The notes under the pieces were generated by a model that saw nothing but the letters and a program-made list of their open reading frames with translations, had not been told where the DNA came from and made no database searches. Positions 7,591-62,620 of a DNA stretch of 64,000 nt are shown piece after piece. The translations under genes were made by a program, and so were the position numbers. The DNA is from a virus: the UHGV virus genome UHGV-0072281; one strand, 5' to 3'. The stretch's first letter is position 1. Each line of letters opens with the position of its first letter.

Positions 7591-8069
7591 TTCAATTTTG
7601 TGTTGACGCAGAAAGATTGGCGTCATTTAAAGAGCGTGCTCAGTTTGCAGTTAAAAACGGTTACATTGAGAAAGGTGTTCGTGATACTTGTAAACTAATC
7701 AACGACCATCCGCACCTGGCGACAATGTGGAGCTGTGAAGGCCACGGTATGTATTCTAAGTCGCCTGGAATTCTGCACATTGTTTTTGCAACAGATGCTA
7801 TTGGAAGCCAGCTTCCAATGCAGATTACGTCTGAACTTGCAAAATGCGATCTGCCCAATTTCTGGAATCTTAGTTTGCGTCGCCTTTTTTTACCTGACGA
7901 ATTTTCGGATTTGGTATATCTTGAACCCGATTACGGGTTAAACACAGACGACACTTCCTACTGGGCTTGGAGAGTCGGATACATGCGCTTGATTAATCGT
8001 CCTGCGTTAGTTGAAGCACGACAAGCTCTTTATAAAGCATTTCACACAGTATTAGTTGAGAATAAATAA
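7587..8069 (+). CDS. Hypothetical protein
   Basis: 160-aa ORF, ATGA overlap. Confidence 0.6.
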   Translation: MIQFCVDAERLASFKERAQFAVKNGYIEKGVRDTCKLINDHPHLATMWSCEGHGMYSKSPGILHIVFATDAIGSQLPMQITSELAKCDLPNFWNLSLRRLFLPDEFSDLVYLEPDYGLNTDDTSYWAWRVGYMRLINRPALVEARQALYKAFHTVLVENK

Positions 8070-8761
8070 TGGCTACCAAGCAAAAGAAACCTCGTAACAA
8101 AAAGTATAACCCGAAAGCAGCTGCTAACCGTACAGCACACGCCATTGCTGAAAATGCGCTAAACCGCATTACTTTCGTCGGTAGCTCTATTCGCCCCATC
8201 GGCCCGTATGCAGGACGCGGTTTCCAGTTTACAACGTCGCCGCGTATGCGCATGGCAGCCACCGATATGTTAATCGGTGGTTTGTTTGATGAACCGCGTA
8301 ATTGGAAGCTATGGGTTGCGCATTTGTACGAGATGGATAATGGCGTACAAGCAGAAACCATCGTTGCAACACTTGACGATTATACGTTGGGTGATTTCTG
8401 TCAACATGGTGATAAAATCATTAAGTCGCTACGTGAGACAGAAGAAAATTACTTCGGTTATGCTTTTGTTGCTGCACCTAACGAACGTTATGATTTCGAC
8501 CAGGGAGAAGAGCGCTTACTGGAAAACTTCATGCATTCTGGACTGTTAGACAAATCCTTACACTTACCTGAAGAAGAACTGGTGGTTACGCGTAAGGATA
8601 TGGTAACGTTGCTACTAGCCGATCGTGGTCGTTTTGATATTACTGAACCCCATGTACGTAAAGTACAGAAACTCGTGGATAAAGTAGACGAAACTGACCT
8701 GGACACTAACGAAGTCGCAACACGACTTCAGTCTGTGGTAAACCAGATTGAGGATTACTAA
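8069..8761 (+). CDS. Hypothetical protein
   Basis: 230-aa ORF, TAATG overlap with upstream gene. Confidence 0.6.
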   Translation: MATKQKKPRNKKYNPKAAANRTAHAIAENALNRITFVGSSIRPIGPYAGRGFQFTTSPRMRMAATDMLIGGLFDEPRNWKLWVAHLYEMDNGVQAETIVATLDDYTLGDFCQHGDKIIKSLRETEENYFGYAFVAAPNERYDFDQGEERLLENFMHSGLLDKSLHLPEEELVVTRKDMVTLLLADRGRFDITEPHVRKVQKLVDKVDETDLDTNEVATRLQSVVNQIEDY

Positions 8762-8763
8762 AC

Positions 8764-9294
8764 GTGATAGCGAGACTTATGAGTTGGTTTAAGCAATGTC
8801 GGGCAAAGGCGGTCGAATGGCCGCCTATTACGCACGATGAAAAGGTGGTTGCTTTTCTGAATTATAACAAAGACTTGAAGAGATTAGGCGAGTTAATGCG
8901 CTTAACGGAATGTCAGGTTTTTGCTAAGATTTCAAGTAGTGCTTTACGTAAACAGGTAATTCCCTACCTATCCTTTTCAGGGCAGGTTTATGCAATAACA
9001 GCAGAAGAATTTTTATCGATGGTGGGCAATGAAACCCCACGTATACGGTACTCGGTTGCGGGTTCATCTGATGCGGTCGGTACAGTTGATTTCGGACGGT
9101 TGTATCAGAGCATTAAAAGTGTGGGGCATATACATGTTAAGCGATTATCAGAAACTTCTGTAGTGATTTATCATCGCACTGAGCACGATTTGTTAGGGTG
9201 TGTTATAAGGCTAACAAATTTACATAGTTTTTACGTTGATTTACTTACAGAGTTTTATCCAGAATCATGGTGCTATATAGATGAAAATAAATGA
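8764..9294 (+). CDS. Hypothetical protein
   Basis: 176-aa ORF; GTG 8764 or ATG 8779 start, unresolved. Confidence 0.5.
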   Translation: MIARLMSWFKQCRAKAVEWPPITHDEKVVAFLNYNKDLKRLGELMRLTECQVFAKISSSALRKQVIPYLSFSGQVYAITAEEFLSMVGNETPRIRYSVAGSSDAVGTVDFGRLYQSIKSVGHIHVKRLSETSVVIYHRTEHDLLGCVIRLTNLHSFYVDLLTEFYPESWCYIDENK

Positions 9295-9493
9295 CGGATA
9301 TATCATCTCAGCAATTGTTTCAACTGCGTTGATTGTAGCGATGTTGATGTTCTACGTTAAGACGTTCGACGAATCACGTAGAGAGTCCCTTTATCGTGAA
9401 TGTATGTCAGGTACTACTGTAGATAACCCACGTTACGCTGAATTAGTAATGGCGTGTACGGAATACGCTAAACGAATGGGAGGCGGACGATGA
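9281..9493 (+). CDS. Small membrane protein (one predicted TM helix)
   Basis: 70-aa ORF with hydrophobic stretch IISAIVSTALIVAMLMFYV. Confidence 0.5.
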   Translation: MKINDGYIISAIVSTALIVAMLMFYVKTFDESRRESLYRECMSGTTVDNPRYAELVMACTEYAKRMGGGR

Positions 9494-9687
9494 AAATTTG
9501 GTTGCCGATTGTAGTTTTTATCCTTATCGCAGGGGCACTAGCGAACGCCGAGTACGAGAGTCGTGTTTTAGAAACGAAACGCATGTTGTATCTGAATTGT
9601 ATAAAGGATTATACACCAGGCACAGAGCTTCATGCACAGGCTGTAAAAAGCTGTGCATTGATGGCTGAATCACAGACTCGCTCCTAA
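9490..9687 (+). CDS. Small membrane or secreted protein
   Basis: 65-aa ORF; N-terminal hydrophobic segment WLPIVVFILIAGALANA; ATGA overlap. Confidence 0.5.
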   Translation: MKIWLPIVVFILIAGALANAEYESRVLETKRMLYLNCIKDYTPGTELHAQAVKSCALMAESQTRS

Positions 9688-10061
9688 TGCGTATCTGGAC
9701 GCTACAACTTGCTAAGTGGCGGTTAGCTAAGCAGAAAGGATTTCACGCAGTGGATATTACTGTGAAGTCAGGGCGAAAGGAACTCGCCCCCGACTGGGAT
9801 TTCCTAATGGCGTATAAAGTTTCTGCCCAGGACGCTACCGCTGAACGTGAGTACACGATAAAGTATTTGTACAAACTCGAACAACTGTTAGATACTGATG
9901 CCGAAGTTTTAGTGTCGTTACTCAGGCACGATGACTTGGTTTTGATGTGTTATTGTCCCGCAGGTAAGTTTTGTCATCGTTACTTACTGGCGAACAAACT
10001 TCAAGAAGTAGGAATGATATTCGGTATCGACGTTGAGTTATGTGGAGAATTAACCGAATGA
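9687..10061 (+). CDS. Hypothetical protein, possibly DUF488-like
   Basis: 124-aa ORF; motif LMCYCPAGKFCHRYLLA resembles the C-x-C...CHR block I associate with DUF488 (from memory, unverified). Confidence 0.45.
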   Translation: MRIWTLQLAKWRLAKQKGFHAVDITVKSGRKELAPDWDFLMAYKVSAQDATAEREYTIKYLYKLEQLLDTDAEVLVSLLRHDDLVLMCYCPAGKFCHRYLLANKLQEVGMIFGIDVELCGELTE

Positions 10062-10495
10062 AAGTAAAAGCAGCAGTAGAAGTTATTCCCAAAAAAGAAA
10101 TCGTAGTGTGTTCCGGTTTAGTATTCGAGCTGCCGCGCACTGAATGTTATAATAGCACCAATCCTGAAACGATAATTAGACGCCTTTCAAGACATTGCCT
10201 AAACTACTGTCAAGTTGTTACACCGACAAAGGATGGCGATATAGTCCAAGAACATTTGATTATTAATGAACTCGTGGGCGGTGTCCTTAACGGAATGGAG
10301 CTTGAAGAAGTGAATGGTTCGTTAAAGCTTTATGCCAACTTTCGTCCATGTGGACCACTGGGCAATAAAGTAAATGAATTTATTCAGTCACACGGGTATG
10401 TAAAGCTTAAACCACGTTTACACTATATCGATTCTAAAGTAGCTATGATTTCAGCTATCGATATTGACCTATCAAAACCTTCTGAAAATCACTAA
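10058..10495 (+). CDS. Hypothetical protein
   Basis: ATGA overlap with upstream stop at 10058-10061; track ORF begins at 10040. Confidence 0.5.
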   Translation: MKVKAAVEVIPKKEIVVCSGLVFELPRTECYNSTNPETIIRRLSRHCLNYCQVVTPTKDGDIVQEHLIINELVGGVLNGMELEEVNGSLKLYANFRPCGPLGNKVNEFIQSHGYVKLKPRLHYIDSKVAMISAIDIDLSKPSENH

Positions 10496-10526
10496 CCGTC
10501 CTTGATTTTCAGCTACAGATTAGTTT

Positions 10527-10572
10527 CCTACCGCCCGATTCTATGGGCGGTAGGTGTTTTATTTTTTTTTTT
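10527..10572 (+). terminator. Rho-independent terminator
   Basis: Hairpin cctaccgccc-gattctat-gggcggtagg followed by a long T-run. Confidence 0.8.
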
Positions 10573-10588
10573 GATCTTGGAGGGTTAA

Positions 10589-11152
10589 GTGGCCACATCT
10601 TACGTACCTGATTTGAGTCTGACCTCAGCAGAGCTAGTGGTCGCTTTAATCAATCATGATAACGGGTTACAGCTTACGCTAAACGAAATCCGTATTAGCG
10701 GAACCGTAACAAACCCATCACCAACAACTTCGCGTCGTAACACCATCACCGAAATCAGTAAAATCAGAAAACCGGATGGTGCGTCTGTTGTGGTCTACTA
10801 CGACAGACTTGACGCCGATGAGGTATTAACGTCTGAACCTATTTTGATTTCGTTAGACGGTACCGAAGCGAATATCCGTGACGTTCTGAGTGTTGTAAAT
10901 GAACACTGCGGTACGAACTTACAGCCTGAAGACTTACGCGTTTCTGATATTACTTCAGGTAACGATCCTATTGCCGTTAACGTTGCCGACGATTCACCTG
11001 CGTGGATGAATGCGTTTATGGTGACGTTATTTGATAAAACTGAGCGTGCGTTAGCGAACGAAGAAGATGAAATCTTCTGCATCGGTGACGATAGCGTTCT
11101 TACCTTTGAGGTTCCAGATGACGACTCAGCTGAAGAAAACCCGACTACATGA
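10589..11152 (+). CDS. Hypothetical protein, member of fibre-adjacent paralogue family
   Basis: GTG start with GGAGGG RBS; paralogous to 16883-17395 (shared PDLSLTS...NHD...YYDRLxA...GDDSV(V)LTF). Confidence 0.6.
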   Translation: MATSYVPDLSLTSAELVVALINHDNGLQLTLNEIRISGTVTNPSPTTSRRNTITEISKIRKPDGASVVVYYDRLDADEVLTSEPILISLDGTEANIRDVLSVVNEHCGTNLQPEDLRVSDITSGNDPIAVNVADDSPAWMNAFMVTLFDKTERALANEEDEIFCIGDDSVLTFEVPDDDSAEENPTT

Positions 11153-11357
11153 ACTTGATGATTTTTACCGGTAATGGAGGACAAAGCAAACTTTTATCAA
11201 GACTTAGCAAACCAAAATCATGAAAACGCGAAATTGAACATCGCTTTCACGTTAGAAGATGATGTATTAAAACCAGGGCAATAGTAACCCGCTTATAAAA
11301 AATTGGGGGGTAAACTACTCTCCTGATCTTTTAGCTCCCGATAGAGAATTAAATATC

Positions 11358-16227: not shown

Positions 16228-16253
16228 GCGTAGGGGTGACCTCCCCCCTACGC
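16228..16253 (+). other. Stem-loop (gcgtagggg...cccctacgc) in intergenic region
   Basis: Inverted repeat with 8-nt loop; no clear T-run. Confidence 0.3.
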
Positions 16254-16264
16254 GAATCTTAACA

Positions 16265-16274
16265 GGGGGGGGGG
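16265..16274 (+). repeat. Homopolymeric G10 tract 2 nt upstream of ATG 16277
   Basis: Direct count of 10 consecutive G; occupies the RBS position. Confidence 0.9.
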
Positions 16275-16276
16275 TA

Positions 16277-16780: not shown

Positions 16781-16817
16781 TTATTTTTCAAACGAATGTG
16801 TTTGAAAACGTAATCGA

Positions 16818-16827
16818 GGGGGGGGGG
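16818..16827 (+). repeat. Homopolymeric G10 tract in intergenic region
   Basis: Direct count of 10 consecutive G between genes 16277-16780 and 16883-17395. Confidence 0.9.
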
Positions 16828-16882
16828 TGAAGTGTTTTTAGCCAACATTTTATGTCTCCCCAACCGTAGGAGGTAAATATAC

Positions 16883-20148: not shown

Positions 20149-20194
20149 TCAGATATATATTACCTAGAGGAGAGTGAAATTTACATTCACTCCA
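20149..20194 (+). promoter_or_regulatory. Promoter-like motif TCAGATATATATTACC plus downstream inverted repeat (gagtgaa/ttcactc)
   Basis: Exact motif copy; precedes gene 20222. Confidence 0.5.
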
Positions 20195-24536: not shown

Positions 24537-24577
24537 TCAGATATATATTACCTAGGTGAGAGTTCAGTTACTCTCAC
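24537..24577 (+). promoter_or_regulatory. Promoter-like motif TCAGATATATATTACC plus downstream inverted repeat (gtgagagt/actctcac)
   Basis: Exact motif copy; precedes gene 24608. Confidence 0.5.
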
Positions 24578-28239: not shown

Positions 28240-29088
28240 ATGTCTCTTACGTCAAAACAGAAACTGCTAAAACTCATCAACACTGAAAACAATATTAGTC
28301 CACCGTTGACTTTCAGTGATGTTGATATCGGAGAACCTACTGGTACTGGGGTTGATACCCAGGTGGTTCTGACCTCTAAACTCAAAGGCGATGAGTCTAC
28401 TACTTTAACAGTGACTTACCACCGTCGTAATTTACCTGACTACTTAACCGGTGAGTTGGTTTTCGGTAACGACAGTGTGGTAACCGCATCAGATTTGCTT
28501 AATGCGATCAACGCAAAATACAACCTAAATATTTTACCCTCGGATATCGTTGACGCAAAAGTTGAAGGTGAAACCCATCAGCTTACCGCTAACGAGAAAT
28601 CTTACGAGTGGTGCGGTGTAGTAACACTTACGCTGCGTGATCCTATTGACCTGACTGAACTGTTACCAGTTACTCAATTAGAGAATCTGGTAGAGTATCC
28701 GTCCACTAAGAAAGGTAACGCTGCGGTTTATTCTCACCCGATCGATTTCACCGCAGAAAAAGATTACCTTGACCCGATTACTATCAACGACACCGTAGAC
28801 TTGGTCGAGTTAGCCGCTAAACTGGATGGCGTCGTTGACGAGAAATGGGTAAGTGTGCCTAAGAACGCGACTAACAACCTGTACGGTGCGAAGGTTATTT
28901 ACGATGGCCCAACCGCAGGTTACGAAGGCGCAAATACGAAGTTCACTCGTGTGTTGGTGCTGACGCTCAGCCCGCTGTGTTCTAACCTGACAGGTAATCT
29001 GTTAATCCACTTTAACGGTACCGATCGTCCGAAGTCGAAGATTGAATTAGCACAGACTAATCCGGTCTTACCGGGATTCTTAGATTAA
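28240..29088 (+). CDS. Hypothetical protein, fibre-adjacent-type paralogue family
   Basis: 282-aa ORF; N-terminal region similar in pattern to 29102 and 32238/32820/33394 family. Confidence 0.55.
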   Translation: MSLTSKQKLLKLINTENNISPPLTFSDVDIGEPTGTGVDTQVVLTSKLKGDESTTLTVTYHRRNLPDYLTGELVFGNDSVVTASDLLNAINAKYNLNILPSDIVDAKVEGETHQLTANEKSYEWCGVVTLTLRDPIDLTELLPVTQLENLVEYPSTKKGNAAVYSHPIDFTAEKDYLDPITINDTVDLVELAAKLDGVVDEKWVSVPKNATNNLYGAKVIYDGPTAGYEGANTKFTRVLVLTLSPLCSNLTGNLLIHFNGTDRPKSKIELAQTNPVLPGFLD

Positions 29089-29101
29089 GAGGATTACAGT
29101 A

Positions 29102-29581
29102 ATGACCAATCAAGAAACTATCTTCGACCTTATTAAAAAGGCTAACCCAGACGCTGAGTTCGACACCACCAAAGTCACACTGGGTGACCCGGTCGTAACC
29201 ACCGGTACGTACAATACCGAAATCACAGTTGCGTCAATTAAGAATCTCGGTTATACTAACGAACAAACGTTCCAGTATAACCGGATCGACGCAGGTTTGT
29301 ATTTCCTGAACGTATTACCGAAACTGTTGGTGGAATCGGCAACAACGACCGCTGACTTACTGCCTGTCATTAACGAGCAGTACAGCCTAACCCTTACAGA
29401 AGACGATGTATGGGTAGAGCAGGTTGGTGAGTTACCGTTAGACGGAAGCGCAATCGAACACGGTATTTTCTTCCGTCCTGAGTGTCTGACCTGGGTTGGC
29501 GGTTTTACAGTGCGAGTTGCGCGTAAACCGGCTGGCGCTACGCCACCCGAGACGGGGGCTCGCGCTAAGAAGAAAAAATAA
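29102..29581 (+). CDS. Hypothetical protein, same family
   Basis: 159-aa ORF, GAGGA RBS; basic C-terminal tail ARAKKKK. Confidence 0.55.
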   Translation: MTNQETIFDLIKKANPDAEFDTTKVTLGDPVVTTGTYNTEITVASIKNLGYTNEQTFQYNRIDAGLYFLNVLPKLLVESATTTADLLPVINEQYSLTLTEDDVWVEQVGELPLDGSAIEHGIFFRPECLTWVGGFTVRVARKPAGATPPETGARAKKKK

Positions 29582-30350: not shown

Positions 30351-31016
30351 ATGGAGAAGCTTCAATATAAACGTTTAGACAATAAGTGGTTTGTATTAAC
30401 GGAGGATTACCATTATCCGTTTACGTTACGTGAGATTTATCACGACCACGTACACTTAGACCGTGCGGTTTATTTAACGGGTGTATTGCCTGACACGCAA
30501 CTGTGGTTAACAGCACCTAAAGGGTTCGTTACTGATTTAGCGTCAATTCCTGAACACCTCCAGGGAATTTTCCATCCTGACGGACCGTGGGCACCTGCGG
30601 CCTGCATTCACGACTTACTGTATCAAAAATGTAACACGGAGCGTAGCTATCCCATGACACCGGGTGGTAACGTTTCGCGTATTATCGATAAAGAGTTCTC
30701 TGACTTAACATTCCTGCGTATTATGCAGTCGTTGGAAATCTCACCGTATATCTGCCAAACGTTTTATAAAGCCGTGGCGGGGTTCGGTTGGGATGCTTAC
30801 GTAGACCCTAACGCGAAACCGTCTTATACCACTAACGATTACCGTACGTTAGATTACAATCGAAACTATTTGTTCGTTCGTGAGTTTAAGGAGCCTGCTA
30901 TTCCTGACCACGAACGTGTTGATATCACCACAGGTTGTCCCGTTAATGTCAAATACCTGAACATCAAACGGGCTTTTCTGTCTGGGAGGGAAGATGTTTC
31001 ATCCAAATCCGAGTAA
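30351..31016 (+). CDS. DUF1353-like protein
   Basis: Motif FVTDLASIP resembles the TDxASIP block of DUF1353 (from memory); ATG 30351 with AAGGAAAGG RBS (track begins at GTG 30342). Confidence 0.45.
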   Translation: MEKLQYKRLDNKWFVLTEDYHYPFTLREIYHDHVHLDRAVYLTGVLPDTQLWLTAPKGFVTDLASIPEHLQGIFHPDGPWAPAACIHDLLYQKCNTERSYPMTPGGNVSRIIDKEFSDLTFLRIMQSLEISPYICQTFYKAVAGFGWDAYVDPNAKPSYTTNDYRTLDYNRNYLFVREFKEPAIPDHERVDITTGCPVNVKYLNIKRAFLSGREDVSSKSE

Positions 31017-31509
31017 CTTTAAACTCAAAGAGTTAGTACCACAATCGTACATCGCCAAATACGGTGATTCTGCAATTCGGTTTATGAACCCGTTGTTAAT
31101 GATCTCCCTACAACAGATTCGTAACCGTTTCGGCAGAATGGTGATTAACTCGTCTGCTGCGCAACAGCGTGGCCTAAGAACCTTAGACTTTTTCATCAAC
31201 CAAGAAAAGCCTAAGGGTGGTAACTATAAACAACGTGCGTTACAACTCTACTCTGATTCAGGGAGTCAACACAAGTTCGGTAATGCATTTGACGCGACAC
31301 TGTTAGACTCAACGGTAAAACAAGTCCACGACTATATCGCCGCTAATCCTGACGAATTTCCGTTCATTCATTTTATCGAATGCGACATCAGTTGGTTGCA
31401 TATCGACGTTCGTAACCAACCGAATATCACGTTCTGGTCACCGAATCGCGGTACTGTGAAAGTCGTGAAACAAAGCCCTATCGATTGGAGCGCCTTAGTT
31501 AAAATCTAA
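30994..31509 (+). CDS. Peptidase M15-like cell-wall hydrolase (L-Ala-D-Glu endopeptidase / carboxypeptidase fold)
   Basis: Motif SQHKFGNAFD fits the Zn-binding S.H..G.A.D block of M15 peptidases; GGGAGGG RBS. Confidence 0.5.
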   Translation: MFHPNPSNFKLKELVPQSYIAKYGDSAIRFMNPLLMISLQQIRNRFGRMVINSSAAQQRGLRTLDFFINQEKPKGGNYKQRALQLYSDSGSQHKFGNAFDATLLDSTVKQVHDYIAANPDEFPFIHFIECDISWLHIDVRNQPNITFWSPNRGTVKVVKQSPIDWSALVKI

Positions 31510-31579: not shown

Positions 31580-31625
31580 CAAAATAAGCCTACCCTCCTG
31601 CTAAGCAGGAGGGTATTTATTATTC
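31580..31625. terminator. Bidirectional rho-independent terminator between convergent genes
   Basis: Hairpin accctcctgc-taa-gcaggagggt flanked by A-run upstream and T-run downstream. Confidence 0.75.
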
Positions 31626-32099
31626 TACCGGGTGCAGCATAGTGCCGGTATCCGGAATGCTGCCTTCGTGACATCTGAAGAACGTTACACCTTTACCTTC
31701 ACCCGTTTTGTAGCTGATGCTAGAATAGGCAAACGTTGGGGTTTTTGACAGTAACCCGTTTACACGGTAATAGCGCTCACCGGTAACGACGTTTAAGTTA
31801 CTGTCCACCTTACCTAACAAATCTTTATAAAGTTGCGGAGATTCGATTTTACCTTCGTTCCATGTAGCGACCCAATTCGCCCCTGTATCCATGACTAACA
31901 CCGAAAGGGGCATCAGTTTTAGACTAGACGGTACCGGTTTAAAATCCACGAATTCTTGAGAAGCACCTGTACAGGTGTAAATGACCATATCGTGTTGGTC
32001 AACAGGTACGGTGGAGAACTGACCTTCTGCGTTCGGCTGAATAGCACAACTTGCCAATGTCATTACAAAAGCAACGACCACGAGAATGCGTTTTAGCAT
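31620..32099 (-). CDS. Putative lipoprotein
   Basis: N-terminus MLKRILVVVAFVMTLASC has signal peptide plus lipobox-like LASC; lone minus-strand gene among plus-strand genes. Confidence 0.6.
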   Translation of the reverse strand: MLKRILVVVAFVMTLASCAIQPNAEGQFSTVPVDQHDMVIYTCTGASQEFVDFKPVPSSLKLMPLSVLVMDTGANWVATWNEGKIESPQLYKDLLGKVDSNLNVVTGERYYRVNGLLSKTPTFAYSSISYKTGEGKGVTFFRCHEGSIPDTGTMLHPVE

Positions 32100-32237
32100 A
32101 ATCTCACCCTTATTAAAATTAAGAAAAAATATTTTTTCAGGTTAGCGCCTACTGCCAACCGTCATATCTATATTTTACGAAATGTCTAAAATAACATTCT
32201 TATGCAATCCACCCCTACCACTTACGAGGTAAAAACG

Positions 32238-32768
32238 ATGGCTAAAGCCTTCAATCAGCAGCTTATCGAAGCTGTAAAAGCCAAAAACCCTGAAACTTCT
32301 TCTAATCTAACCGTAGAAGACGTTGACTTTGGTGCCGTGGAAGCACATAGCGGAAATGGTGGCCGTAACACCAAAGTTACGCTGACTGCAAAAGAAGAAA
32401 GTGCTAACTTTACTGGCAGCAAAGAATTCCACTACACTCGTCTGGCTTCCCAAGACTTGATCGGTGCCAAAGCTTACGAACAAGCTGGTAATCTCGATCT
32501 GGAAAACTCAGCCATCGTAACCAAACTCAACGAAGAAATGGTTACTAAAGGTTATACCGACGACGCGTTTGTCGAAAATGAACTGACAATTGAGAAAACT
32601 GACGGCGATAGCGGTGCTAAAGTTTACACTATCAAAGTAAAAGATGCCCACATCAAATTCTTGACCGGCACCATTGCCACTTTCACTTATACCAACCCAG
32701 CGCCTGAAAAAGTAGCCCTTAGCGGTCTGGAAGGTGAACTTGATGGCTTCACAGCCCCAAAAGACTAA
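32238..32768 (+). CDS. Hypothetical protein, first of three tandem paralogues
   Basis: ATG 32238 with GAGG RBS (track begins 32202); shared core ..NTKVT(L/M)TA...S.NF.G...(L/F).Y.RL....GELDGF(T/K). Confidence 0.6.
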   Translation: MAKAFNQQLIEAVKAKNPETSSNLTVEDVDFGAVEAHSGNGGRNTKVTLTAKEESANFTGSKEFHYTRLASQDLIGAKAYEQAGNLDLENSAIVTKLNEEMVTKGYTDDAFVENELTIEKTDGDSGAKVYTIKVKDAHIKFLTGTIATFTYTNPAPEKVALSGLEGELDGFTAPKD

Positions 32769-32819
32769 TGCTTTAACAACCAAACTAAGGCGGTAAATCC
32801 GCCTTATTAGGAGAAAAAA

Positions 32820-33359
32820 ATGGATAGTCAAGCTACTAACCAAATGCAGCTAGTCGAGTTATATAACGCTGCCAACACTGGTTTGCCGCACAAATTGGTG
32901 TCGTCTGAAGTAAAATTTGGTCTGCCCTCTGCAAACGACGACGGTGAAAAAAATACCAAAGTTACAATGACCGCTTTACCCGGCTCAGAAAATTTCCGTG
33001 GTCAGATTGAACTTAAGTACGACCGATTAAACCCCTCCATAATTTCTGATTCTCTGGGAGTGGTCAAACTCGAGGGGGAGATAGAAAAATGGCGGGAAGA
33101 TAACTATGTTCGCGCCTATCTGCAACATTATATTAACCAAGTAAAACCCAGAGACACAATAGCCACAGGCGATATTGTTTATAGTTACGAAGAAGTAAAA
33201 GAACAGGATAAACTTGTCGCACTACGAGTTACCTGCACTGTCGCTGAAAGAAACCATAAATATCTGCAAGGCGTAATGCTTGTCTTTGAAGTTAGTCCAG
33301 AAAAGATCGATCTTTCCACCACTAACGGAGAGTTGGACGGCTTTAAACCGACCGAGTAA
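32820..33359 (+). CDS. Hypothetical protein, tandem paralogue
   Basis: 179 aa; strong similarity to 33394 gene (QM.LV.LYNAANTGLPH...KNTKVTMTAL.GSENF.G.IELKYDRL). Confidence 0.65.
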   Translation: MDSQATNQMQLVELYNAANTGLPHKLVSSEVKFGLPSANDDGEKNTKVTMTALPGSENFRGQIELKYDRLNPSIISDSLGVVKLEGEIEKWREDNYVRAYLQHYINQVKPRDTIATGDIVYSYEEVKEQDKLVALRVTCTVAERNHKYLQGVMLVFEVSPEKIDLSTTNGELDGFKPTE

Positions 33360-33393
33360 CCACTAACAACCAACTTTTATAGAGATTAAATTA

Positions 33394-33924
33394 ATGGCAG
33401 CTACTAACCAGATGATGTTGGTCGCGTTGTATAATGCTGCTAATACTGGGCTACCGCATCAGATTACTGATAAAGAAGTGTCCTTTGGTCAACCTGTTGC
33501 GCTGGAAGGCGAAGGTAAAAACACCAAAGTTACCATGACAGCATTGGCGGGTTCCGAAAACTTTAAAGGCTCAATCGAACTGAAATACGATCGACTGGAA
33601 CCGGGTGTTGTAGGGCGTATTGAACTAACTGACGATCTGTCTCGTTGGGTAGAAGAGAACGAACTGCGAGCCTGGTTACAGTATTATATCAACAAAGTAA
33701 AACCTAACGACACGATCGCGCCGGGAGATGTTGTTTATTCTACAGAAGACCAAAAAGACGAGCATGAAAACGTTACTCTGCGAACAGTAACGTGTACCGT
33801 TACCGAAAGAAACCTCCGTTATAAACCAGGTGTAATGGCAACTTTCGTAATTACACCGAAGGTTGTCGATAATCGTATTGACCTGGCCACCACCAACGGT
33901 GAATTGGACGGTTTTACTGCTTAA
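33394..33924 (+). CDS. Hypothetical protein, tandem paralogue
   Basis: 176 aa; see previous. Confidence 0.65.
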   Translation: MAATNQMMLVALYNAANTGLPHQITDKEVSFGQPVALEGEGKNTKVTMTALAGSENFKGSIELKYDRLEPGVVGRIELTDDLSRWVEENELRAWLQYYINKVKPNDTIAPGDVVYSTEDQKDEHENVTLRTVTCTVTERNLRYKPGVMATFVITPKVVDNRIDLATTNGELDGFTA

Positions 33925-34000: not shown

Positions 34001-34670
34001 CTAATCCCATTTCCAGTGCAAGTGCACGGATAGTGTCGTAGTCACGCTGTTCAGCTAAGAGGCGAAGCTCTTTTTTCTGTGCGGTCATTTGTCCATGCAA
34101 CTTCTGATCACGTTTTACGATCTCGGACAATAATTCCTTACACTCTTCTAATGTAAAGGGTTCTAAACGTGTATTGGCGGTATCCAACCAATATTCTGGC
34201 GCAGTTTCAGATTGGATGTATTGCCCTAACATTTGTCGGGAGATTGCATCAGCCTGAAAATGACGTTCATTTAGCTGAATTGGTTCGTAACGTTGTGCTT
34301 CGTAACGCTTCTCCAACGCCATCATGATCTTTTGAACATCTAAATAAATATATCGTGCTGTTGAACGAACGTTACTTCGAATCTCATCCAGATCTATCTC
34401 CAATTTATCTGAAATGAACTCTTTTGCTTTTTTCAAGGTGAAATTTGCTTCAATATCTGACATATTGTAACTACGCATTTGATCTAACGCGTCTTCATCG
34501 GACATGCCGTCGAGTAGTTTGTAATGAAGCAGTGTACAAAAACCCGTTCTGCCGCGATCTTCAGTACCTATATGGCCCAAAAAGTTTCCGTGGCGATCAA
34601 TTGGGGAAAGTCGGCTAAAAAATCTGGCGCGAATATCTTCGTTTATTAAGCTTTTGTCAAGAGCAGGCAT
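33996..34670 (-). CDS. Hypothetical protein, last gene of the radical SAM/peptide locus
   Basis: 224-aa ORF, overlaps upstream gene by 25 nt (translational coupling). Confidence 0.55.
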   Translation of the reverse strand: MPALDKSLINEDIRARFFSRLSPIDRHGNFLGHIGTEDRGRTGFCTLLHYKLLDGMSDEDALDQMRSYNMSDIEANFTLKKAKEFISDKLEIDLDEIRSNVRSTARYIYLDVQKIMMALEKRYEAQRYEPIQLNERHFQADAISRQMLGQYIQSETAPEYWLDTANTRLEPFTLEECKELLSEIVKRDQKLHGQMTAQKKELRLLAEQRDYDTIRALALEMGLE

Positions 34671-35218
34671 TCGTCTTCTCCTTTAATTAAACCCAGCTCG
34701 ATCAGAAGATCAAAATCGATTTTACGAAACTTACTATCAAAATTTGAGTCCCAGTCAATATGTAGTCCTTGACGTTCGTCTTCTGTAAACTCGGGATAAA
34801 CTAAACTATGAAAAGTTTCCCTTTCATCGTAAAAACCATCGATGGTGGACTCTGGGTTTCGTGTGACATAAATTGTTACACCGGGAAACGATAAGCCTAG
34901 GGCGGCTACAGATTCAACACTCGGCTCTTGCAAAGCGCGTCGCAAAAGAACGATTTTATGTTTAGGGAATTCCAGCACGCGCTGTTCAAAACCTGGGTTT
35001 CGTTTCTCGATTTCAGCCACAGAAAGATCGGTAAGTTCTGTACAATACATCGGAATAACAACGGTAACTCCGTGACGAATTAATAATCGCTTAACATCGT
35101 CATTGAAATCTTCGCCGTTAATCTGTACATAACAGCCAAACAGTTTCGTAGTTTCTAAAAACTTTTCCAGAAAACGGAATTTACGCTTCGTAATATTGTG
35201 GATCAGAATTGGCTTCAT
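34646..35218 (-). CDS. Hypothetical protein in radical SAM/peptide locus
   Basis: 190-aa ORF overlapping the SPASM rSAM gene end. Confidence 0.5.
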   Translation of the reverse strand: MKPILIHNITKRKFRFLEKFLETTKLFGCYVQINGEDFNDDVKRLLIRHGVTVVIPMYCTELTDLSVAEIEKRNPGFEQRVLEFPKHKIVLLRRALQEPSVESVAALGLSFPGVTIYVTRNPESTIDGFYDERETFHSLVYPEFTEDERQGLHIDWDSNFDSKFRKIDFDLLIELGLIKGEDECLLLTKA

Positions 35219-36503
35219 CTTTGGCTTCTCTCAATTGTTTTTCTTTCTGGGCGCGTTCACGTACACAGCGAGGACAGTAACACATGCTATTATCGTGAAA
35301 ATCCTTCACGGATGTTGTGCCCATTTTCTGCTTCCAATATTCCGCAACCATCAATTTTGCAGTTGTCCAACCACACTGACGACGTTCAGCGTGATATGCT
35401 TTACGGTCTTCTAACGTCCCTTCCCCATTCTCGTAGGAAGCTGCTGCACAGCTACCACAAGCGTGTTTCATTGGACAACCTAAGCACGTCTCAGGATAGT
35501 TGGTGTATTGCGTCTGAATCTCTTCCAGCAGTTTCCCACCGTCTAAACTAACGAATTCGCGACCGACTAACTCAAATACCGCAGAGCGTGACGTTACAGT
35601 CGACATGAAACGGTTACAACCGAAAATCTTCCTGTCAAACCCTAAACAAGTCATGTGCGTTAATGTCCCGCAGAACGGGCGCAAGCGTTCCGGGTTTAAA
35701 CGTACAGTATCGTTGTAAAGTAGCTGATCACGCCAGTTCGGTTCCCAGATAGTGTCGAAATCTAACCCTTCCGGGATGATATGCGAAAGGGTATTACGTG
35801 GGTTGGTGTGTAAACCCTTTTCAACCCAATAATCGACTACATCCATCATTTGTAGCGCTATCGACGTAGCCATACTCCGTGGCATAATGTCTTCGAAGGT
35901 TACGTTACCAGAAATGGTTCCACCTCCCGCCAAATCGATTAGGGATTTCATACCCGCCGCATAATGTGGGAGTGTCTCCAAAGTAAATGTCGCTTTAACC
36001 CCAAGCTCCGCGATACCTACTTCTTTTAGATAATTGTAACCACGTACAGCGGCCTCGTAGGAACCTTCGCGACTCGTTGTAAAAATACGGTACTTATCGT
36101 GCGACTCAGGTAACCCATCAATAGATACCCCGATAGAAAGTCTGTCCTTCCAACGTTCAATAATTTCCCTGTTCAACGGCCTATCTAATAATGTCCCATT
36201 AGTAGAGATACTAAACATAAACGGACGTTTATGTTCTTCACACAACTGCTCGGCTGTTTCGAAAGCAGTCATTAGAAGCTTAGGCTGCATAAACGGTTCA
36301 CCGCCGATAATGTCAATGATGACTTCTACGTTTGGTAAATCTTTATCGCGTTCAAAGCAGGCATGAAGAAAGTCTACAATATCCGCTGCTTTGTTATTGC
36401 GGGGATATTTACGCTCGTAACAATACTCACAGTCCAAATTACACGACAAGTTTGTAACAATCTGGTAAGTCAACTGTTTCGGGTAATTATTTTCTTGGTT
36501 CAT
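35181..36503 (-). CDS. Radical SAM enzyme with C-terminal SPASM-like Cys-rich domain (putative peptide-modifying maturase)
   Basis: N-terminal CNLDCEYC (C-x3-C-x2-C), IIGGEPF glycine-rich SAM motif, C-terminal Cys clusters incl. CLGCPMKHACGSC. Confidence 0.8.
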   Translation of the reverse strand: MNQENNYPKQLTYQIVTNLSCNLDCEYCYERKYPRNNKAADIVDFLHACFERDKDLPNVEVIIDIIGGEPFMQPKLLMTAFETAEQLCEEHKRPFMFSISTNGTLLDRPLNREIIERWKDRLSIGVSIDGLPESHDKYRIFTTSREGSYEAAVRGYNYLKEVGIAELGVKATFTLETLPHYAAGMKSLIDLAGGGTISGNVTFEDIMPRSMATSIALQMMDVVDYWVEKGLHTNPRNTLSHIIPEGLDFDTIWEPNWRDQLLYNDTVRLNPERLRPFCGTLTHMTCLGFDRKIFGCNRFMSTVTSRSAVFELVGREFVSLDGGKLLEEIQTQYTNYPETCLGCPMKHACGSCAAASYENGEGTLEDRKAYHAERRQCGWTTAKLMVAEYWKQKMGTTSVKDFHDNSMCYCPRCVRERAQKEKQLREAKDEANSDPQYYEA

Positions 36504-37410
36504 TTAATACTCCACTATTACGGTTGGCCATAACCACTCGTCGAATATACTCGTAGGCTTCTAACCCGATGGAACAAGCTAATTGGTTACATCCCGATTC
36601 TAATAATCTCGGGGCATTTTGCAACTGATATTCGGTTCCATCTGCTCTTAACCATAAACTATTGCTGCATACGTTACACCCACCATCAAAAACTTTGCTT
36701 ACGACATAGTCACACCTTTTCGAGTTGGAAACATTCAGTCTTTCTATATTTTCCTGAATTCTAAAATACCCGTAAATAAAGTTCATAACGTGATCGGGAG
36801 ATAACGGTTTTGGCATATTTGCGTCTAACAGCAACGTCATGGTACGATAACCGTAGTGATAGATCGCATTATGAAGCTCAATAATGTCTTCATGCCACCG
36901 TTTGTTACCCAACTGTTCTCGAGTTAAAACGGCCCATGTATGAACATTTTCAAGCTCATGCATTACTTCTAAAGCTTCGTAGCAATCATCGCTAATAAAA
37001 CGCTTAAAAGGGCGTTCAGACAACTCAAACCCGTCGATGCTAACATATACGTTATCAAATTGTTTTAACAACGGTAGATGCGTTTTACGCATCTTTAAGC
37101 CATTGGTGTATAACTGATGTTTGAGTTCTGGGCGAACTGCTTTTAACTCGTCAACAAACGCCTCAATTTTACGAGTGGCTAACAAAGGCTCACCACCCGT
37201 CCATTGAATCTCGGTAATTGTTGGGTTAGCTTCTAACGCCTCCATAATTCGGTCACGTTGAAACTCTCGAGAAGAATCTTCACGATTCATGTAATAGGCT
37301 CCGCCGCAGAAACTACAGTCCAGATTACATTTGGATGTAGTAATAACGGCTAATATAGTTGGATTATCAAATAGCTGATCTGATAATTTTGGTTCCGCAT
37401 TGGTCGCCAT
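36487..37410 (-). CDS. Radical SAM enzyme (paralogue B)
   Basis: VITTSKCNLDCSFCGG (C-x3-C-x2-C), WTGGEPLL; C-terminal Cys residues; paralogue of 39018-39929 with blocks of perfect nucleotide identity. Confidence 0.8.
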   Translation of the reverse strand: MATNAEPKLSDQLFDNPTILAVITTSKCNLDCSFCGGAYYMNREDSSREFQRDRIMEALEANPTITEIQWTGGEPLLATRKIEAFVDELKAVRPELKHQLYTNGLKMRKTHLPLLKQFDNVYVSIDGFELSERPFKRFISDDCYEALEVMHELENVHTWAVLTREQLGNKRWHEDIIELHNAIYHYGYRTMTLLLDANMPKPLSPDHVMNFIYGYFRIQENIERLNVSNSKRCDYVVSKVFDGGCNVCSNSLWLRADGTEYQLQNAPRLLESGCNQLACSIGLEAYEYIRRVVMANRNSGVLNEPRK

Positions 37411-58235: not shown

Positions 58236-58290
58236 TCAGATATATTTTACTTAAGTGAATAGGAGCTGAAGTGCGAATTCAGCTCCTATA
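58236..58290 (+). promoter_or_regulatory. Promoter-like motif variant (TCAGATATATTTTAC) plus 11-bp-stem hairpin (taggagctgaa/ttcagctccta)
   Basis: Motif family member; sits in divergent intergenic region. Confidence 0.4.
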
Positions 58291-59350: not shown

Positions 59351-59908
59351 ATGTCTACTATTGAACTGAAACAACAAGTTATTGGGTTTATTAAGCTGGG
59401 TACAGGTAAACACCGACTTGATTATCCTTGCGTTATACAGTCTAACATTATCCCGGTCGATACAATGATTACCGGTCTTCAGGTTGAAGAATTTGATGGA
59501 GATGCTGTGGTTTGGGAACGCCATTTCACACGACTTAATTATCGTAAAGTCGGAGATAGTTTTACCGAAATATTCCGTCATCTGTTTTCCGGTACCGGAT
59601 GGAAAGTAACGAGTGCGTTCTACGGTGGCAATGTTGTTACGCTTCTAGACAGAGGAGATGCACGTTATCTCGTGAACTTTACTTTCGCAAGACACTATGC
59701 GTATTTCCCTAACCCTCTTACGTGTACGTTAAGTAACCCAGGAATACTACTAACAGATAAAGAAGCAGACGTTCTACTCGCCGAACTGCGAAAAGACGGT
59801 TGCGACGTTGACGATTGGGAAACATTAATCGCGGTTGCCAAAGCACACGGTTGGTACAGCGTACGTAAAATCGGTCAGCAGTTATTATTCTTAGCTTACC
59901 CTGTTTAA
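59351..59908 (+). CDS. Hypothetical protein, tandem paralogue family
   Basis: 185 aa; C-terminal HGWYSVRKIGQQLLFLA; conserved upstream CCTAAAGGAGAATAAAATG. Confidence 0.6.
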   Translation: MSTIELKQQVIGFIKLGTGKHRLDYPCVIQSNIIPVDTMITGLQVEEFDGDAVVWERHFTRLNYRKVGDSFTEIFRHLFSGTGWKVTSAFYGGNVVTLLDRGDARYLVNFTFARHYAYFPNPLTCTLSNPGILLTDKEADVLLAELRKDGCDVDDWETLIAVAKAHGWYSVRKIGQQLLFLAYPV

Positions 59909-59938
59909 GTAACAAAAAAACCTAAAGGAGAGTAAAAA

Positions 59939-61090: not shown

Positions 61091-61117
61091 TAAGTAAAAA
61101 TACACTTTCTCTAACTG

Positions 61118-61143
61118 CCGCGCTTTAGTCGCGGCTTTTGTTA
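61118..61143 (+). terminator. Rho-independent terminator (probable)
   Basis: Hairpin gccgcg-ctttagt-cgcggc followed by TTTTGTT. Confidence 0.55.
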
Positions 61144-61157
61144 AGAAGGAAAAAGAA

Positions 61158-62580: not shown

Positions 62581-62620
62581 TCAGATATATATTACTTAGG
62601 TGAGAGTTAAGATTAACTCT
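62581..62620 (+). promoter_or_regulatory. Promoter-like motif TCAGATATATATTAC plus downstream inverted repeat (gagagttaa/ttaactct)
   Basis: Exact motif copy directly after terminator; precedes gene 62652. Confidence 0.5.

What the first reader, a model, noticed from the sequence alone, without database searches (positions are those of the whole stretch)
31620..32099. Lone minus-strand lipoprotein gene inside a plus-strand block (moron-like)
Seen in sequence: 159-aa ORF with signal peptide and LASC lipobox, bracketed by a bidirectional terminator (31580-31625) and a ~100-nt AT-rich upstream region. Inference: candidate superinfection-exclusion or receptor-masking lipoprotein (as for T5 Llp), or an unusually large outer-membrane spanin component.
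Basis: partly seen in the sequence, partly recalled or inferred. Interest (0 to 1): 0.45.

Follow-up and report, generated by a model that had tools for sequence, protein, structure and literature searches.

The report
Conserved jumbo-phage outer-membrane lipoprotein gene
This is a real gene for a small protein that a giant Salmonella-type phage anchors under the host's outer membrane; related giant phages carry it too, nobody has characterised it, and it most plausibly shields infected cells or new phage particles from wasteful re-infection, which has not been tested.

Summary
ORF 31620-32099(-) encodes a 159-aa prolipoprotein (lipobox LASC, Cys18). It is the only lipobox ORF in the 64-kb window and the only minus-strand gene between 46 and 3 plus-strand genes. 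A strong bidirectional terminator hairpin (31591-31615) lies downstream and a 138-nt, 33% GC region lies upstream.

The window is an undeposited relative of the nucleus-forming jumbo phages SPN3US and phiEaH2. The gene is the ortholog of SPN3US gp159 (phrog_9559, function unknown).

- All 23 family members keep the lipobox, a non-Asp +2 residue and two further cysteines.
- The model is an eight-stranded beta-barrel on a tether.
- gp159 is not among the proteins detected in SPN3US virions.
- Every ortholog has its own terminator and a conserved TATGAC-plus-hairpin element, the phiKZ-type late promoter motif.
- Composition is native and dN/dS is about 0.1, but the cassette is missing at the same site in Derbicusvirus.

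So it is a native accessory cassette, not a foreign moron.

An envelope-level exclusion or anti-readsorption role fits the gene layout (like T5 llp/oad; next to the tail fibre in Goslar) but is unproven, and the protein is not an Llp homolog. The spanin reading is unlikely: SPN3US has a separate transmembrane-protein plus lipoprotein pair. Interest is moderate to low.

The parts
31620..32099 (-). Prolipoprotein CDS, 159 aa; ortholog of SPN3US gp159 (SPN3US_0159 / ACQ60_gp107); member of phrog_9559
   Evidence: ORF. phrog_9559 match at E 4.7e-68. 52-59% identity to SPN3US, phiEaH2, Asesino and STsAS orthologs. dN/dS 0.08-0.13.
32049..32099 (-). Signal peptide, aa 1-17 (MLKRILVVVAFVMTLAS): positive n-region and hydrophobic core
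   Evidence: Hydropathy and PS51257-type rule. All 23 family members fit the rule.
32046..32057 (-). Lipobox L15-A16-S17-C18. Cys18 would be the lipid-modified first residue of the mature protein. The +2 residue is Ala, which under the E. coli Lol rule predicts outer-membrane sorting
   Evidence: Read from the sequence. L15 and C18 are invariant. +2 residues across the family are A, S, V, Q or K, never D.
31623..32048 (-). Mature protein, aa 18-159: a tether of about 20 residues, an eight-stranded all-beta barrel (aa ~39-145) with invariant Cys43 and Cys143 (probable disulfide), then a short disordered tail
31591..31615 (.). Bidirectional intrinsic-terminator hairpin shared with the convergent M15-like peptidase gene (30994-31509, +)
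   Evidence: A hairpin plus T-run directly follows the stop codon in every ortholog, with different stem sequences.
32161..32166 (-). TATGAC, 67 nt upstream of the ATG: predicted phiKZ-type (T-3 A T G+1) late promoter and transcription start for the non-virion phage RNA polymerase
   Evidence: Present once, at -38 to -70, in all 11 orthologous upstream regions. Chance is about 4% per region, and the flanks are only 30% identical. The motif definition comes from review PMC7598289. The same hexamer lies upstream of the SPN3US tail sheath, gp171 and gp61 genes.
32140..32160 (-). Hairpin at the predicted 5' end of the mRNA (GGUUGGC-7 nt-GCUAACC), followed by an A-rich stretch
   Evidence: -9.8 kcal/mol, z -2.8. 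All 11 orthologs have a hairpin starting at +1 to +4 with unrelated stem sequences, mean z -1.8.
32103..32111 (-). Ribosome-binding site AAGGGTGAG, 3 nt before the ATG
   Evidence: Read from the sequence.
32238..32768 (+). Divergent neighbour: small DUF7941 paralog, counterpart of SPN3US gp160 (an abundant head-associated virion protein). It has its own TATG at 32201-32204. This divergent pairing with the lipoprotein gene is kept in all SPN3US/Erwinia-type loci
   Evidence: Pfam DUF7941. Synteny. gp160 in SPN3US virions and tailless particles. Conserved yTATGmA element.

Best explanation
Shown: 31620-32099(-) is a functional gene for a secreted, lipid-anchored protein, the SPN3US gp159 / phrog_9559 family.

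Predicted pathway and location: after Sec export, lipidation at Cys18 and signal peptidase II cleavage, the Lol pathway should place it in the inner leaflet of the outer membrane, because +2 is Ala. There, a tether of about 20 residues would hold a disulfide-stapled eight-stranded beta-barrel in the periplasm.

Transcription unit (elements read from the sequence, function inferred): the gene is monocistronic, made of a TATGAC start element with a 5' hairpin, a ribosome-binding site, the ORF and a terminator. From the motif I infer that the phage's own non-virion RNA polymerase transcribes it together with late structural genes.

Status: gp159 is not among the proteins detected in SPN3US virions, and the cassette is absent at the same site in Derbicusvirus, so it is an accessory gene.

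Most likely function (inference, about 35-40%): an envelope-level self-protection factor. It would bind, from the periplasmic face, a conserved component of the adsorption or entry route. That component could be a host outer-membrane receptor or secondary receptor, or the incoming tail tip. Late-infected cells and their debris would then stop capturing and triggering phages of the same kind. This is Llp/Cor-like in logic, built on an unrelated, larger protein.
For: Gene and lipoprotein nature:
- 23 of 23 members have a lipobox, +2 is never Asp, and each mature protein has exactly two further conserved Cys.
- Purifying selection.
- Fold: pLDDT 81.7; eight-stranded barrels, many of them bacterial lipoprotein barrels.

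Non-virion: gp159 is missing from the SPN3US virion mass-spectrometry table, while gp160 and gp138-155 are present.

Autonomous unit:
- Terminators in all orthologs.
- TATGAC in 11 of 11 upstream regions despite random flanks, each followed by a 5' hairpin.
- The motif equals the phiKZ late promoter and lies upstream of SPN3US tail sheath, gp171 and gp61, which are virion proteins.
- The early promoter motif CAGATATATATTACC is absent here.

Accessory status: CR5 and Phobos keep DUF4376-DUF1353-M15A-DUF7941 but have no lipoprotein gene there, and tblastn finds none elsewhere in them.

Link to virion surface and host-recognition genes:
- Always next to DUF7941 virion-protein paralogs.
- In Goslar, directly after the gpS-like tail fibre and its assembly protein.
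- In metagenomic relatives, between DUF7941 proteins carrying LRR_5 or DUF285 domains.
- The layout mirrors T5 oad/llp, which are divergent across a shared promoter region.
Against: - No functional test exists in anything I could read.
- No homology to Llp beyond the signal peptide, and no match to any Pfam, NCBIfam, PADLOC or PDB sequence family.
- T5 Llp is made early, whereas the promoter motif here predicts late expression. That suits protection of progeny from debris better than classical superinfection exclusion.
- The protein is conserved (45-60% identity) across phages of Salmonella, E. coli, Proteus and Erwinia, and dN/dS is low. Receptor-specific blockers usually co-vary with the receptor-binding protein; as recalled from the literature, not checked here, T5 and BF23 Llp are reported to share no homology.
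- SPN3US is reported to use flagella as its receptor, which a periplasmic lipoprotein cannot mask directly.
- In SPN3US the DUF7941 neighbours are head-associated, not tail fibres, so the adjacency argument is weaker in this lineage than in Goslar.
Confidence: 0.4

Rival explanations
1. Lysis accessory. The lipoprotein would take part in outer-membrane disruption or in timing of lysis, either as an unusually large o-spanin-like component whose partner is encoded elsewhere, or as a regulator of the nearby GH108 endolysin or M15-like peptidase.
For: - The predicted late-type promoter matches lysis timing.
- It is an outer-membrane lipoprotein.
- In the window, SPN3US and phiEaH2 it lies within 2 kb of a GH108 plus PG_binding_3 endolysin and an M15-like peptidase.
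- In ChrisDB-type phages GH108 and DUF1353 are still within about 3 kb and on the same strand.
Against: - No gene for a type-II membrane protein lies next to it or on its strand.
- It is a folded, disulfide-containing barrel of 142 residues, unlike the short proline-rich o-spanins.
- It has no C-terminal transmembrane segment, so it is not a unimolecular spanin.
- SPN3US has a textbook separated pair elsewhere: 180017-180487 encodes an N-terminal transmembrane protein and 180497-180976 a lipoprotein. That lipoprotein is conserved in 73 phages, including those lacking this family.
- The gene is absent from Derbicusvirus, which still has to lyse its host.
- No peptidoglycan hydrolase lies within 8 kb in Goslar-type loci.
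Confidence: 0.15
2. Peptidoglycan-hydrolase inhibitor. The barrel would be an MliC/PliC-like lipoprotein that, from the outer membrane, neutralises a muralytic enzyme. This could be the tail-associated lysin of superinfecting phages, which is T4 Spackle logic, or the phage's own enzymes until lysis.
For: - MliC is likewise an outer-membrane lipoprotein with an eight-stranded barrel (from my own knowledge of that family).
- Peptidoglycan hydrolase genes are neighbours in several lineages.
- SPN3US gp158, the M15-like protein, is a low-copy virion protein not found in tailless heads.
Against: - No member of the family hits Pfam MliC even at E up to 10.
- No PDB sequence relation.
- The hydrolase neighbourhood is lost in Goslar-type loci.
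Confidence: 0.12
3. Small-ligand binder or envelope modulator. A lipocalin/YceI-like barrel would bind a lipid, isoprenoid or other hydrophobic molecule and adjust outer-membrane physiology during the long jumbo-phage cycle, with no direct role in exclusion or lysis.
For: - Weak Foldseek hits are lipocalins.
- Conservation across hosts with low dN/dS fits a conserved small ligand.
Against: - All matches sit at the level expected for any eight-stranded up-and-down barrel.
- No family-level sequence match.
- Invariant charged residues (D71, E86, R109, R112) and the Y111/GxGxG loops suggest a polar binding surface rather than a greasy cavity. This is inferred from the alignment only.
- It does not explain the constant placement among virion genes.
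Confidence: 0.15
4. A chance antisense ORF or decaying remnant with no function.
For: None beyond its isolated orientation.
Against: - Orthologs in 55 phage genomes.
- 23 of 23 members have intact lipoboxes and conserved cysteines.
- dN/dS about 0.1.
- A confident fold.
- Conserved promoter element and terminators.
Confidence: 0.01

Closest known systems
SPN3US gp159 (SPN3US_0159 / ACQ60_gp107) and Goslar_00088; PHROG family phrog_9559
   Same: True orthologs. 53% (SPN3US) and about 32% (Goslar) identity, with the same lipobox, the same two cysteines and the same RYYR and GxGxG signatures. SPN3US also has the same position and orientation.
   Different: None in kind. All are annotated 'hypothetical protein' or 'lipoprotein', with no function assigned.
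Phage T5 Llp (FhuA-blocking lipoprotein; the RefSeq record labels the product 'Cor superinfection exclusion protein')
   Same: A phage-encoded outer-membrane lipoprotein. Its gene is divergent from a virion gene across a shared promoter region. The mature part contains cysteines. The logic of acting from the periplasmic side would be the same.
   Different: No homology beyond the signal peptide. Mature Llp is about 61 aa against 142 aa here. Llp is expressed early (literature), whereas here a late-type promoter is predicted. The T5 partner gene is the receptor-binding protein, whereas here it is a DUF7941 head-associated paralog. No receptor is known for this protein.
Cor of phi80/N15/HK022/T1 (FhuA-dependent exclusion)
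   Same: A small envelope protein encoded just downstream of tail fibre genes, as in the Goslar ortholog.
   Different: No sequence-family match. Different size and a different predicted fold. Function untested here.
Two-component spanin outer-membrane subunit (lambda Rz1, T4 PseT.3) and unimolecular spanin (T1 gp11)
   Same: An outer-membrane lipoprotein made by a phage, with late timing predicted.
   Different: No embedded, overlapping or adjacent i-spanin gene. A globular barrel instead of a short proline-rich chain. No C-terminal transmembrane helix. A better spanin candidate pair exists in SPN3US at 180017-180976.
MliC/PliC lysozyme inhibitors (e.g. Brucella PhiA, PDB 7dpy) and, by logic only, T4 Spackle
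   Different: No Pfam MliC hit in any member. The match is no better than to many unrelated barrels. T4 Spackle, by my recollection, is a soluble helical periplasmic protein and not a lipoprotein.

Membership tests
Bacterial lipoproteins (signal peptidase II substrates) | Positive n-region, hydrophobic core and lipobox [LVI][ASTVI][GAS]C with the Cys at positions 15-35 | tested here: met
   MLKR-ILVVVAFVMT-LASC; the PS51257-type rule is met, in 23 of 23 family members.
Bacterial lipoproteins (signal peptidase II substrates) | Actual diacylglyceryl modification and globomycin-sensitive cleavage | not testable with these tools
   Needs labelling or globomycin experiments.
Outer-membrane (Lol-sorted) lipoproteins of Enterobacterales | No Asp at +2 after the lipid-modified Cys | tested here: met
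   +2 is Ala here; across the family it is A, S, V, Q or K, never D. The rule itself is established E. coli knowledge.
phrog_9559 / SPN3US gp159 family | Full-length profile match | tested here: met
   E 4.7e-68 over residues 2-150. Invariant C18, C43, C143, R109, Y111, R112, G133 and G135.
T5 Llp family | Sequence homology of the mature domain | tested here: not met
   hhalign aligns only the 18-residue signal peptide, probability 50%.
T5 Llp family | Gene divergent from a virion or receptor-binding gene with a shared promoter region | tested here: met
   T5 oad(-)/llp(+) with promoters at 110349-110449. Here the lipoprotein(-) is divergent from the DUF7941 paralog(+) across 32100-32237. The partner is not a known receptor-binding protein.
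T5 Llp family | Binds and inactivates the phage's receptor; gives exclusion when expressed alone | not testable with these tools
   Requires expression and adsorption assays.
Cor family | Profile match to Cor proteins | tested here: not met
   No Pfam or PHROG family other than phrog_9559 is hit.
Two-component spanin, o-spanin subunit | Gene embedded in, overlapping or adjacent to an i-spanin gene (type-II membrane protein) on the same strand | tested here: not met
   It is the sole minus-strand gene. Its neighbours are the M15-like peptidase and DUF7941 genes on the other strand.
Two-component spanin, o-spanin subunit | Short, largely unstructured, proline-rich periplasmic domain | tested here: not met
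   A 142-aa mature protein with a confident eight-stranded barrel.
Unimolecular spanin (T1 gp11 type) | N-terminal lipobox plus a C-terminal transmembrane helix | tested here: not met
   No hydrophobic segment after residue 20.
MliC/PliC lysozyme inhibitors | Match to Pfam MliC (PF09864) | tested here: not met
   No hit in any of 23 members at E up to 10.
MliC/PliC lysozyme inhibitors | Eight-stranded barrel fold | tested here: inconclusive
Moron (autonomous accessory gene in a late operon) | Own promoter and own terminator | tested here: met
   Conserved TATGAC element and terminator hairpins. Promoter activity itself is inferred.
Moron (autonomous accessory gene in a late operon) | Patchy distribution among related phages | tested here: met
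   Absent at the syntenic site of Derbicusvirus CR5 and Phobos; present in the other lineages listed above.
Moron (autonomous accessory gene in a late operon) | Atypical base composition or codon usage indicating foreign origin | tested here: not met
   GC 0.456 against 0.433 +/- 0.028; GC3 0.463 against 0.425 +/- 0.047; CAI-like index 0.756 against 0.743 +/- 0.035.

The most novel reading that the evidence does not exclude
The gp159 family could be a new class of envelope factor specific to enterobacterial nucleus-forming jumbo phages. It would be a late-made, outer-membrane-tethered beta-barrel that binds a conserved element of the phage's own entry machinery, or a conserved host envelope machine, rather than a variable receptor. 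It would thereby block re-entry or loss of progeny, or act in a so far undescribed step of envelope breakdown. Either mechanism would differ from Llp, Cor, Spackle and the spanins.
Probability: 0.15. Interest if true: 0.6.

Novelty: new variant of a known kind. Interest (0 to 1): 0.33.

Why it matters
Phage-encoded envelope lipoproteins decide who can infect an already infected cell and how many progeny are lost on debris. Only a few have been studied (Llp, Cor, Rz1).

This family is conserved in therapeutically relevant Salmonella, E. coli and Erwinia jumbo phages and has no assigned function. It is easy to test by expressing it and measuring adsorption and plating.

If it is an exclusion factor, it would matter for designing cocktails that contain SPN3US-like phages. 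It would also identify a conserved step in the still poorly known entry route of nucleus-forming phages.

The conserved TATGAC-plus-hairpin element is additionally a usable late-promoter signature for this phage group.

Tried and rejected
- Megablast of the locus against deposited phages found nothing. Only the 'distant' mode and protein searches placed the window.
- Sequence-family searches for the lipoprotein were all empty or chance-level apart from phrog_9559: Pfam, NCBIfam, PADLOC, and PDB by single sequence and by profile. The recurring P5C-reductase PDB hit (E 0.03) is a chance match to a different fold.
- The first structure model, built from 11 sequences, was too poor to use (pLDDT 54).
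- The afdb50 fold library was unavailable. Foldseek against the PDB was not significant. BFVD returned only the family itself plus weak hits to other phage lipoproteins.
- I suspected at first that the AT-rich upstream element was a degenerate early promoter. The early motif CAGATATATATTACC does not occur there within 3 mismatches, so I dropped this.
- I first noted that the link to peptidoglycan hydrolase genes is lost in ChrisDB-type phages. This was too strong, because GH108 and DUF1353 are still within about 3 kb there. The link is truly lost only in Goslar-type loci.
- I first read the DUF7941 neighbours as tail-fibre-like. SPN3US mass spectrometry shows the family is head-associated.
- Literature searches found no functional study of gp159, Goslar gp088 or any jumbo-phage lipoprotein.
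- Rfam found nothing relevant; the only hit was a sub-threshold twister-P3 match inside the CDS, E 0.16.
Full report
**1. What is in the sequence**

- The N-terminus MLKRILVVVAFVMTLAS-C has two basic residues, a 12-residue hydrophobic core and the lipobox L-A-S-C, with the cysteine at position 18. It satisfies the PROSITE PS51257-type rule.
- It is the only ATG-started ORF of at least 50 codons, in any frame of the 64-kb window, that satisfies this rule. A looser scan with all start codons and a 30-codon minimum again returned only this ORF.
- Crude gene calling shows 46 plus-strand genes before it, this single minus-strand gene, three plus-strand genes after it, and then a 15-gene minus-strand block.
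- Downstream, an 11-bp stem with 7 G-C pairs (31591-31615) has T-rich tails on both strands. The scanner flagged it on both strands. It folds at -24.0 (plus strand) and -29.1 (minus strand) kcal/mol, z about -6. It serves both this gene and the convergent gene 30994-31509.
- Upstream, 138 nt (32100-32237) separate the ATG from the probable start of the divergent gene. This region is 33% GC against 44% for the window.

**2. Which genome this is**

Megablast finds no deposited phage. Blastn and tblastn place the window among the nucleus-forming jumbo phages of Enterobacterales: SPN3US (Seoulvirus), phiEaH2 (Erskinevirus), Asesino and others, at roughly 70% nucleotide and 50-60% protein identity. 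An IMG/VR contig encodes an identical protein, and two others encode it at 97%.

The lipoprotein is the ortholog of SPN3US_0159 (gp159; RefSeq ACQ60_gp107) and matches phrog_9559, 'unknown function', at E 4.7e-68.

Gene order around it is shared with SPN3US and phiEaH2:
- DUF7941 virion-protein paralogs;
- a GH108 plus PG_binding_3 endolysin;
- a DUF1353 protein;
- an M15-like peptidase (not in phiEaH2);
- the antisense lipoprotein;
- one or more small DUF7941 paralogs;
- then an antisense block starting with a DUF4376 protein and two radical-SAM proteins.

**3. The protein family**

A word-indexed search of 5.8 billion proteins found 11 clusters. An exhaustive profile search of 1.8 billion representatives found 16. 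A profile search seeded with the distant hits gave 25 clusters at 90% identity, most of the well-assembled ones on contigs of 220-250 kb. There are no cellular homologs. The single 'Salmonella Agona' entry sits on a 227-kb contig, which is phage DNA in an isolate assembly.

- All 23 full-length members fit the lipobox rule.
- The residue after the lipid-modified cysteine is A, S, V, Q or K, never D.
- Each mature protein has exactly two further cysteines at conserved positions (C43 and C143 here).
- Other invariant residues are Y41, D71, G73, E86, R109, Y111, R112, S126, G133 and G135.
- dN/dS against two 97%-identical relatives is 0.08 and 0.13.

This is a real protein under purifying selection.

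**4. Structure**

With 11 sequences AlphaFold2 failed (pLDDT 54). With 23 sequences it gave mean pLDDT 81.7, with most 10-residue blocks of residues 31-140 above 88. The model has a signal helix, a low-confidence tether (residues ~18-38), eight beta strands between 39 and 145, and a disordered tail. C43 lies in the first strand and C143 in the last, which suits a disulfide closing the barrel in the oxidising periplasm (inference).

- Foldseek against the PDB finds nothing significant.
- BFVD finds the family itself and weak matches to other phage lipoproteins.
- No sequence family is hit in Pfam, NCBIfam, PADLOC or the PDB, even with the profile or at E up to 10.

The fold therefore says 'small periplasmic barrel lipoprotein' and nothing more specific.

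**5. Transcription signals**

Every ortholog, including Goslar-type and metagenomic ones, has a G+C-rich hairpin plus T-run right after its stop codon, with different stem sequences.

Upstream element:
- All 11 SPN3US/Erwinia-type loci contain the hexamer TATGAC exactly once, 38-70 nt before the ATG.
- The chance of one occurrence in such a region is about 4%, and the 20+20 nt flanking the motif are only 30% identical between lineages.
- In each case the predicted transcript, starting at the G, opens with a hairpin of unrelated sequence followed by an A-rich run.
- Goslar-type and metagenomic orthologs show TATG followed by a hairpin about 35 nt before the ATG.

Interpretation:
- In phiKZ the late promoters of the non-virion RNA polymerase consist of T-3 A T G+1. 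All four bases are required in vitro, and an undefined contribution comes from the downstream region (review PMC7598289).
- In SPN3US, TATG is depleted genome-wide (observed/expected 0.60). TATGAC lies in sense orientation upstream of the tail sheath gene and of genes 158739-160001 and 59713-61215. By position I take these two to be gp171 and gp61, which are virion proteins.
- The window phage's early promoter motif, CAGATATATATTACC (five strong copies, each followed by a hairpin), is not present upstream of the lipoprotein.

I therefore infer, but have not shown, that the gene is a monocistronic late-type unit read by the phage's own polymerase. The divergent DUF7941 gene has its own conserved yTATGmA element.

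**6. Native or foreign**

GC, GC3 and a codon-adaptation index computed against 32 window genes are all within one standard deviation of the mean. The gene is kept at the same place in the SPN3US-like, phiEaH2-like, Asesino-, Wellington- and ChrisDB-type phages and, in a different arrangement, in Goslar.

It is nonetheless accessory. Derbicusvirus phages CR5 and Phobos keep the flanking DUF4376, DUF1353, M15A and DUF7941 genes but have no lipoprotein gene there, and tblastn finds none elsewhere in them.

'Moron-like' is thus right for the architecture and the patchy distribution, and wrong if it implies recent foreign origin.

**7. Context clues to function**

- SPN3US virion mass spectrometry lists gp138-155 and gp160 (the DUF7941 paralogs, present even in tailless particles) but not gp156, gp157 or gp159. 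gp158 was seen at low level and not in heads. The lipoprotein is therefore non-structural, as expected for an exported protein.
- The one neighbour that never changes in SPN3US/Erwinia-type phages is a small DUF7941 paralog transcribed divergently. The GH108 and DUF1353 genes move to the other side in ChrisDB-type phages, though they stay within about 3 kb.
- In Goslar the gene follows, on the same strand, a gpS-like long tail fibre (Phage_tail_fib, Gp34_trimer domains) and a tail-fibre assembly protein. It precedes a DUF7941 protein fused to a TIM-barrel domain.
- In a metagenomic relative it lies between DUF7941 proteins carrying LRR_5 or DUF285 domains.
- T5 llp and the receptor-binding gene oad are likewise divergent across a shared promoter region.

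These placements among virion-surface and host-recognition genes are the main positive argument for an exclusion or anti-readsorption role.

**8. Weighing the mechanisms**

Spanin reading:
- There is no partner gene, the domain is a folded barrel, and there is no C-terminal transmembrane helix.
- SPN3US carries a textbook separated pair elsewhere: 180017-180487 encodes a protein with one N-terminal transmembrane segment and a proline-rich tail, and 180497-980 encodes a lipoprotein with LLLTGC. That lipoprotein is conserved in 73 phages, including Derbicusvirus.
- I rate a lysis role at about 0.15.

Ligand-binding or other envelope role: it cannot be excluded, and I rate it at about 0.15.

Envelope-level self-protection: I commit to this as the most likely function, at about 0.35-0.4. 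The caveats are:
- predicted late expression fits protection of progeny from debris better than classical early exclusion;
- the protein is too conserved across hosts to be a blocker of a variable receptor, so its target should be a conserved host envelope component or the phage's own entry apparatus;
- SPN3US is reported to use flagella as its receptor;
- the protein is unrelated to Llp beyond the signal peptide.

No functional study of this family was found.

**9. Novelty and verdict**

The gene and its orthologs are already in databases as hypothetical proteins or 'lipoprotein'. What is added here:
- the family definition (lipobox, disulfide, barrel);
- its restriction to enterobacterial nucleus-forming jumbo phages;
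- its non-virion, accessory status;
- the conserved late-type promoter element;
- the exclusion of the spanin and Llp-homolog readings.

It is a new variant of a known kind, namely phage envelope lipoproteins. The finding is real and well defined, ordinary in kind, and of unknown function. It is of moderate to low interest, with cheap decisive experiments available.

Noticed in passing
SPN3US NC_027402 180017-180976 (loci L026 35017-35976): Two adjacent same-strand genes: a 156-aa protein with one N-terminal transmembrane segment and a proline-rich tail, then a 159-aa lipoprotein (LLLTGC). They match phrog_8719 and phrog_8165, both 'unknown', and are annotated hypothetical. This is the architecture of a separated two-component spanin. 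The lipoprotein is conserved in 73 phage records, including Derbicusvirus.
   Followed up: partly
window 262-276, 20150-20164, 24538-24552, 58237-58251, 62582-62596 (+): A recurrent CAGATATATATTACC motif (8 matches at up to 3 mismatches against 1.7 expected). At least three of the five strong copies are followed by an inverted repeat and lie 50-70 nt before a gene start. This is probably the early (virion RNA polymerase) promoter of this phage.
   Followed up: partly
SPN3US whole genome; window intergenic regions: TATG is depleted genome-wide in SPN3US (observed/expected 0.60 under a first-order Markov model) but 2.5-fold richer in sense-oriented upstream regions than the genome average. TATGAC precedes the tail sheath, gp171, gp61 and gp157 genes. 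This is consistent with a phiKZ-type late promoter signal that is avoided elsewhere.
   Followed up: partly
window 28240-29581 and 32238-33924 (+): Five DUF7941 paralogs flank the locus. In SPN3US this family (17 members, gp138-154, plus gp160) is head-associated by mass spectrometry. In Goslar-type and metagenomic relatives the same N-terminal domain is fused to TIM-barrel, LRR_5 or DUF285 domains, which hints at ligand-binding head or surface fibres.
   Followed up: partly
L028 (CR5) 7726-9547; L029 (Phobos) 7723-11344: Derbicusvirus phages keep DUF4376-DUF1353-M15A-DUF7941 in one orientation with no lipoprotein gene. The site shows presence/absence and inversion polymorphism between genera.
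   Followed up: yes
SPN3US NC_027402 175058-175780: The annotated 'transglycosylase' (ACQ60_gp068) starts with a typical cleavable signal peptide (MFRTILFLLVAVTTFNSNA), so it is a secreted muralytic enzyme. It lies about 5 kb from the candidate spanin pair.
   Followed up: no
window 34646-37410 (-): Two radical-SAM proteins and two small conserved proteins form an antisense block next to the locus. The block is conserved from SPN3US to CR5 and its function is unknown.
   Followed up: no
window ~16230-16276 and ~16800-16830 (+): Runs of 10 consecutive G in two intergenic regions, upstream of genes 16277 and 16883. These are unusual homopolymers that could be slippage-prone.
   Followed up: no
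protein cluster P0001 (98% identical to the window protein): The cluster has 308 member sequences and 23 contigs, including a 227-kb contig labelled Salmonella enterica serovar Agona. Relatives of this phage therefore turn up in bacterial isolate assemblies, either as a carrier state or as contamination.
   Followed up: no
proteins P0016, P0020, P0037, P0038 (SPFM phage records): These are scrambled versions of the lipoprotein, with segments in permuted order, from some SPFM Salmonella phage assemblies. They look like assembly artefacts in those records.
   Followed up: no
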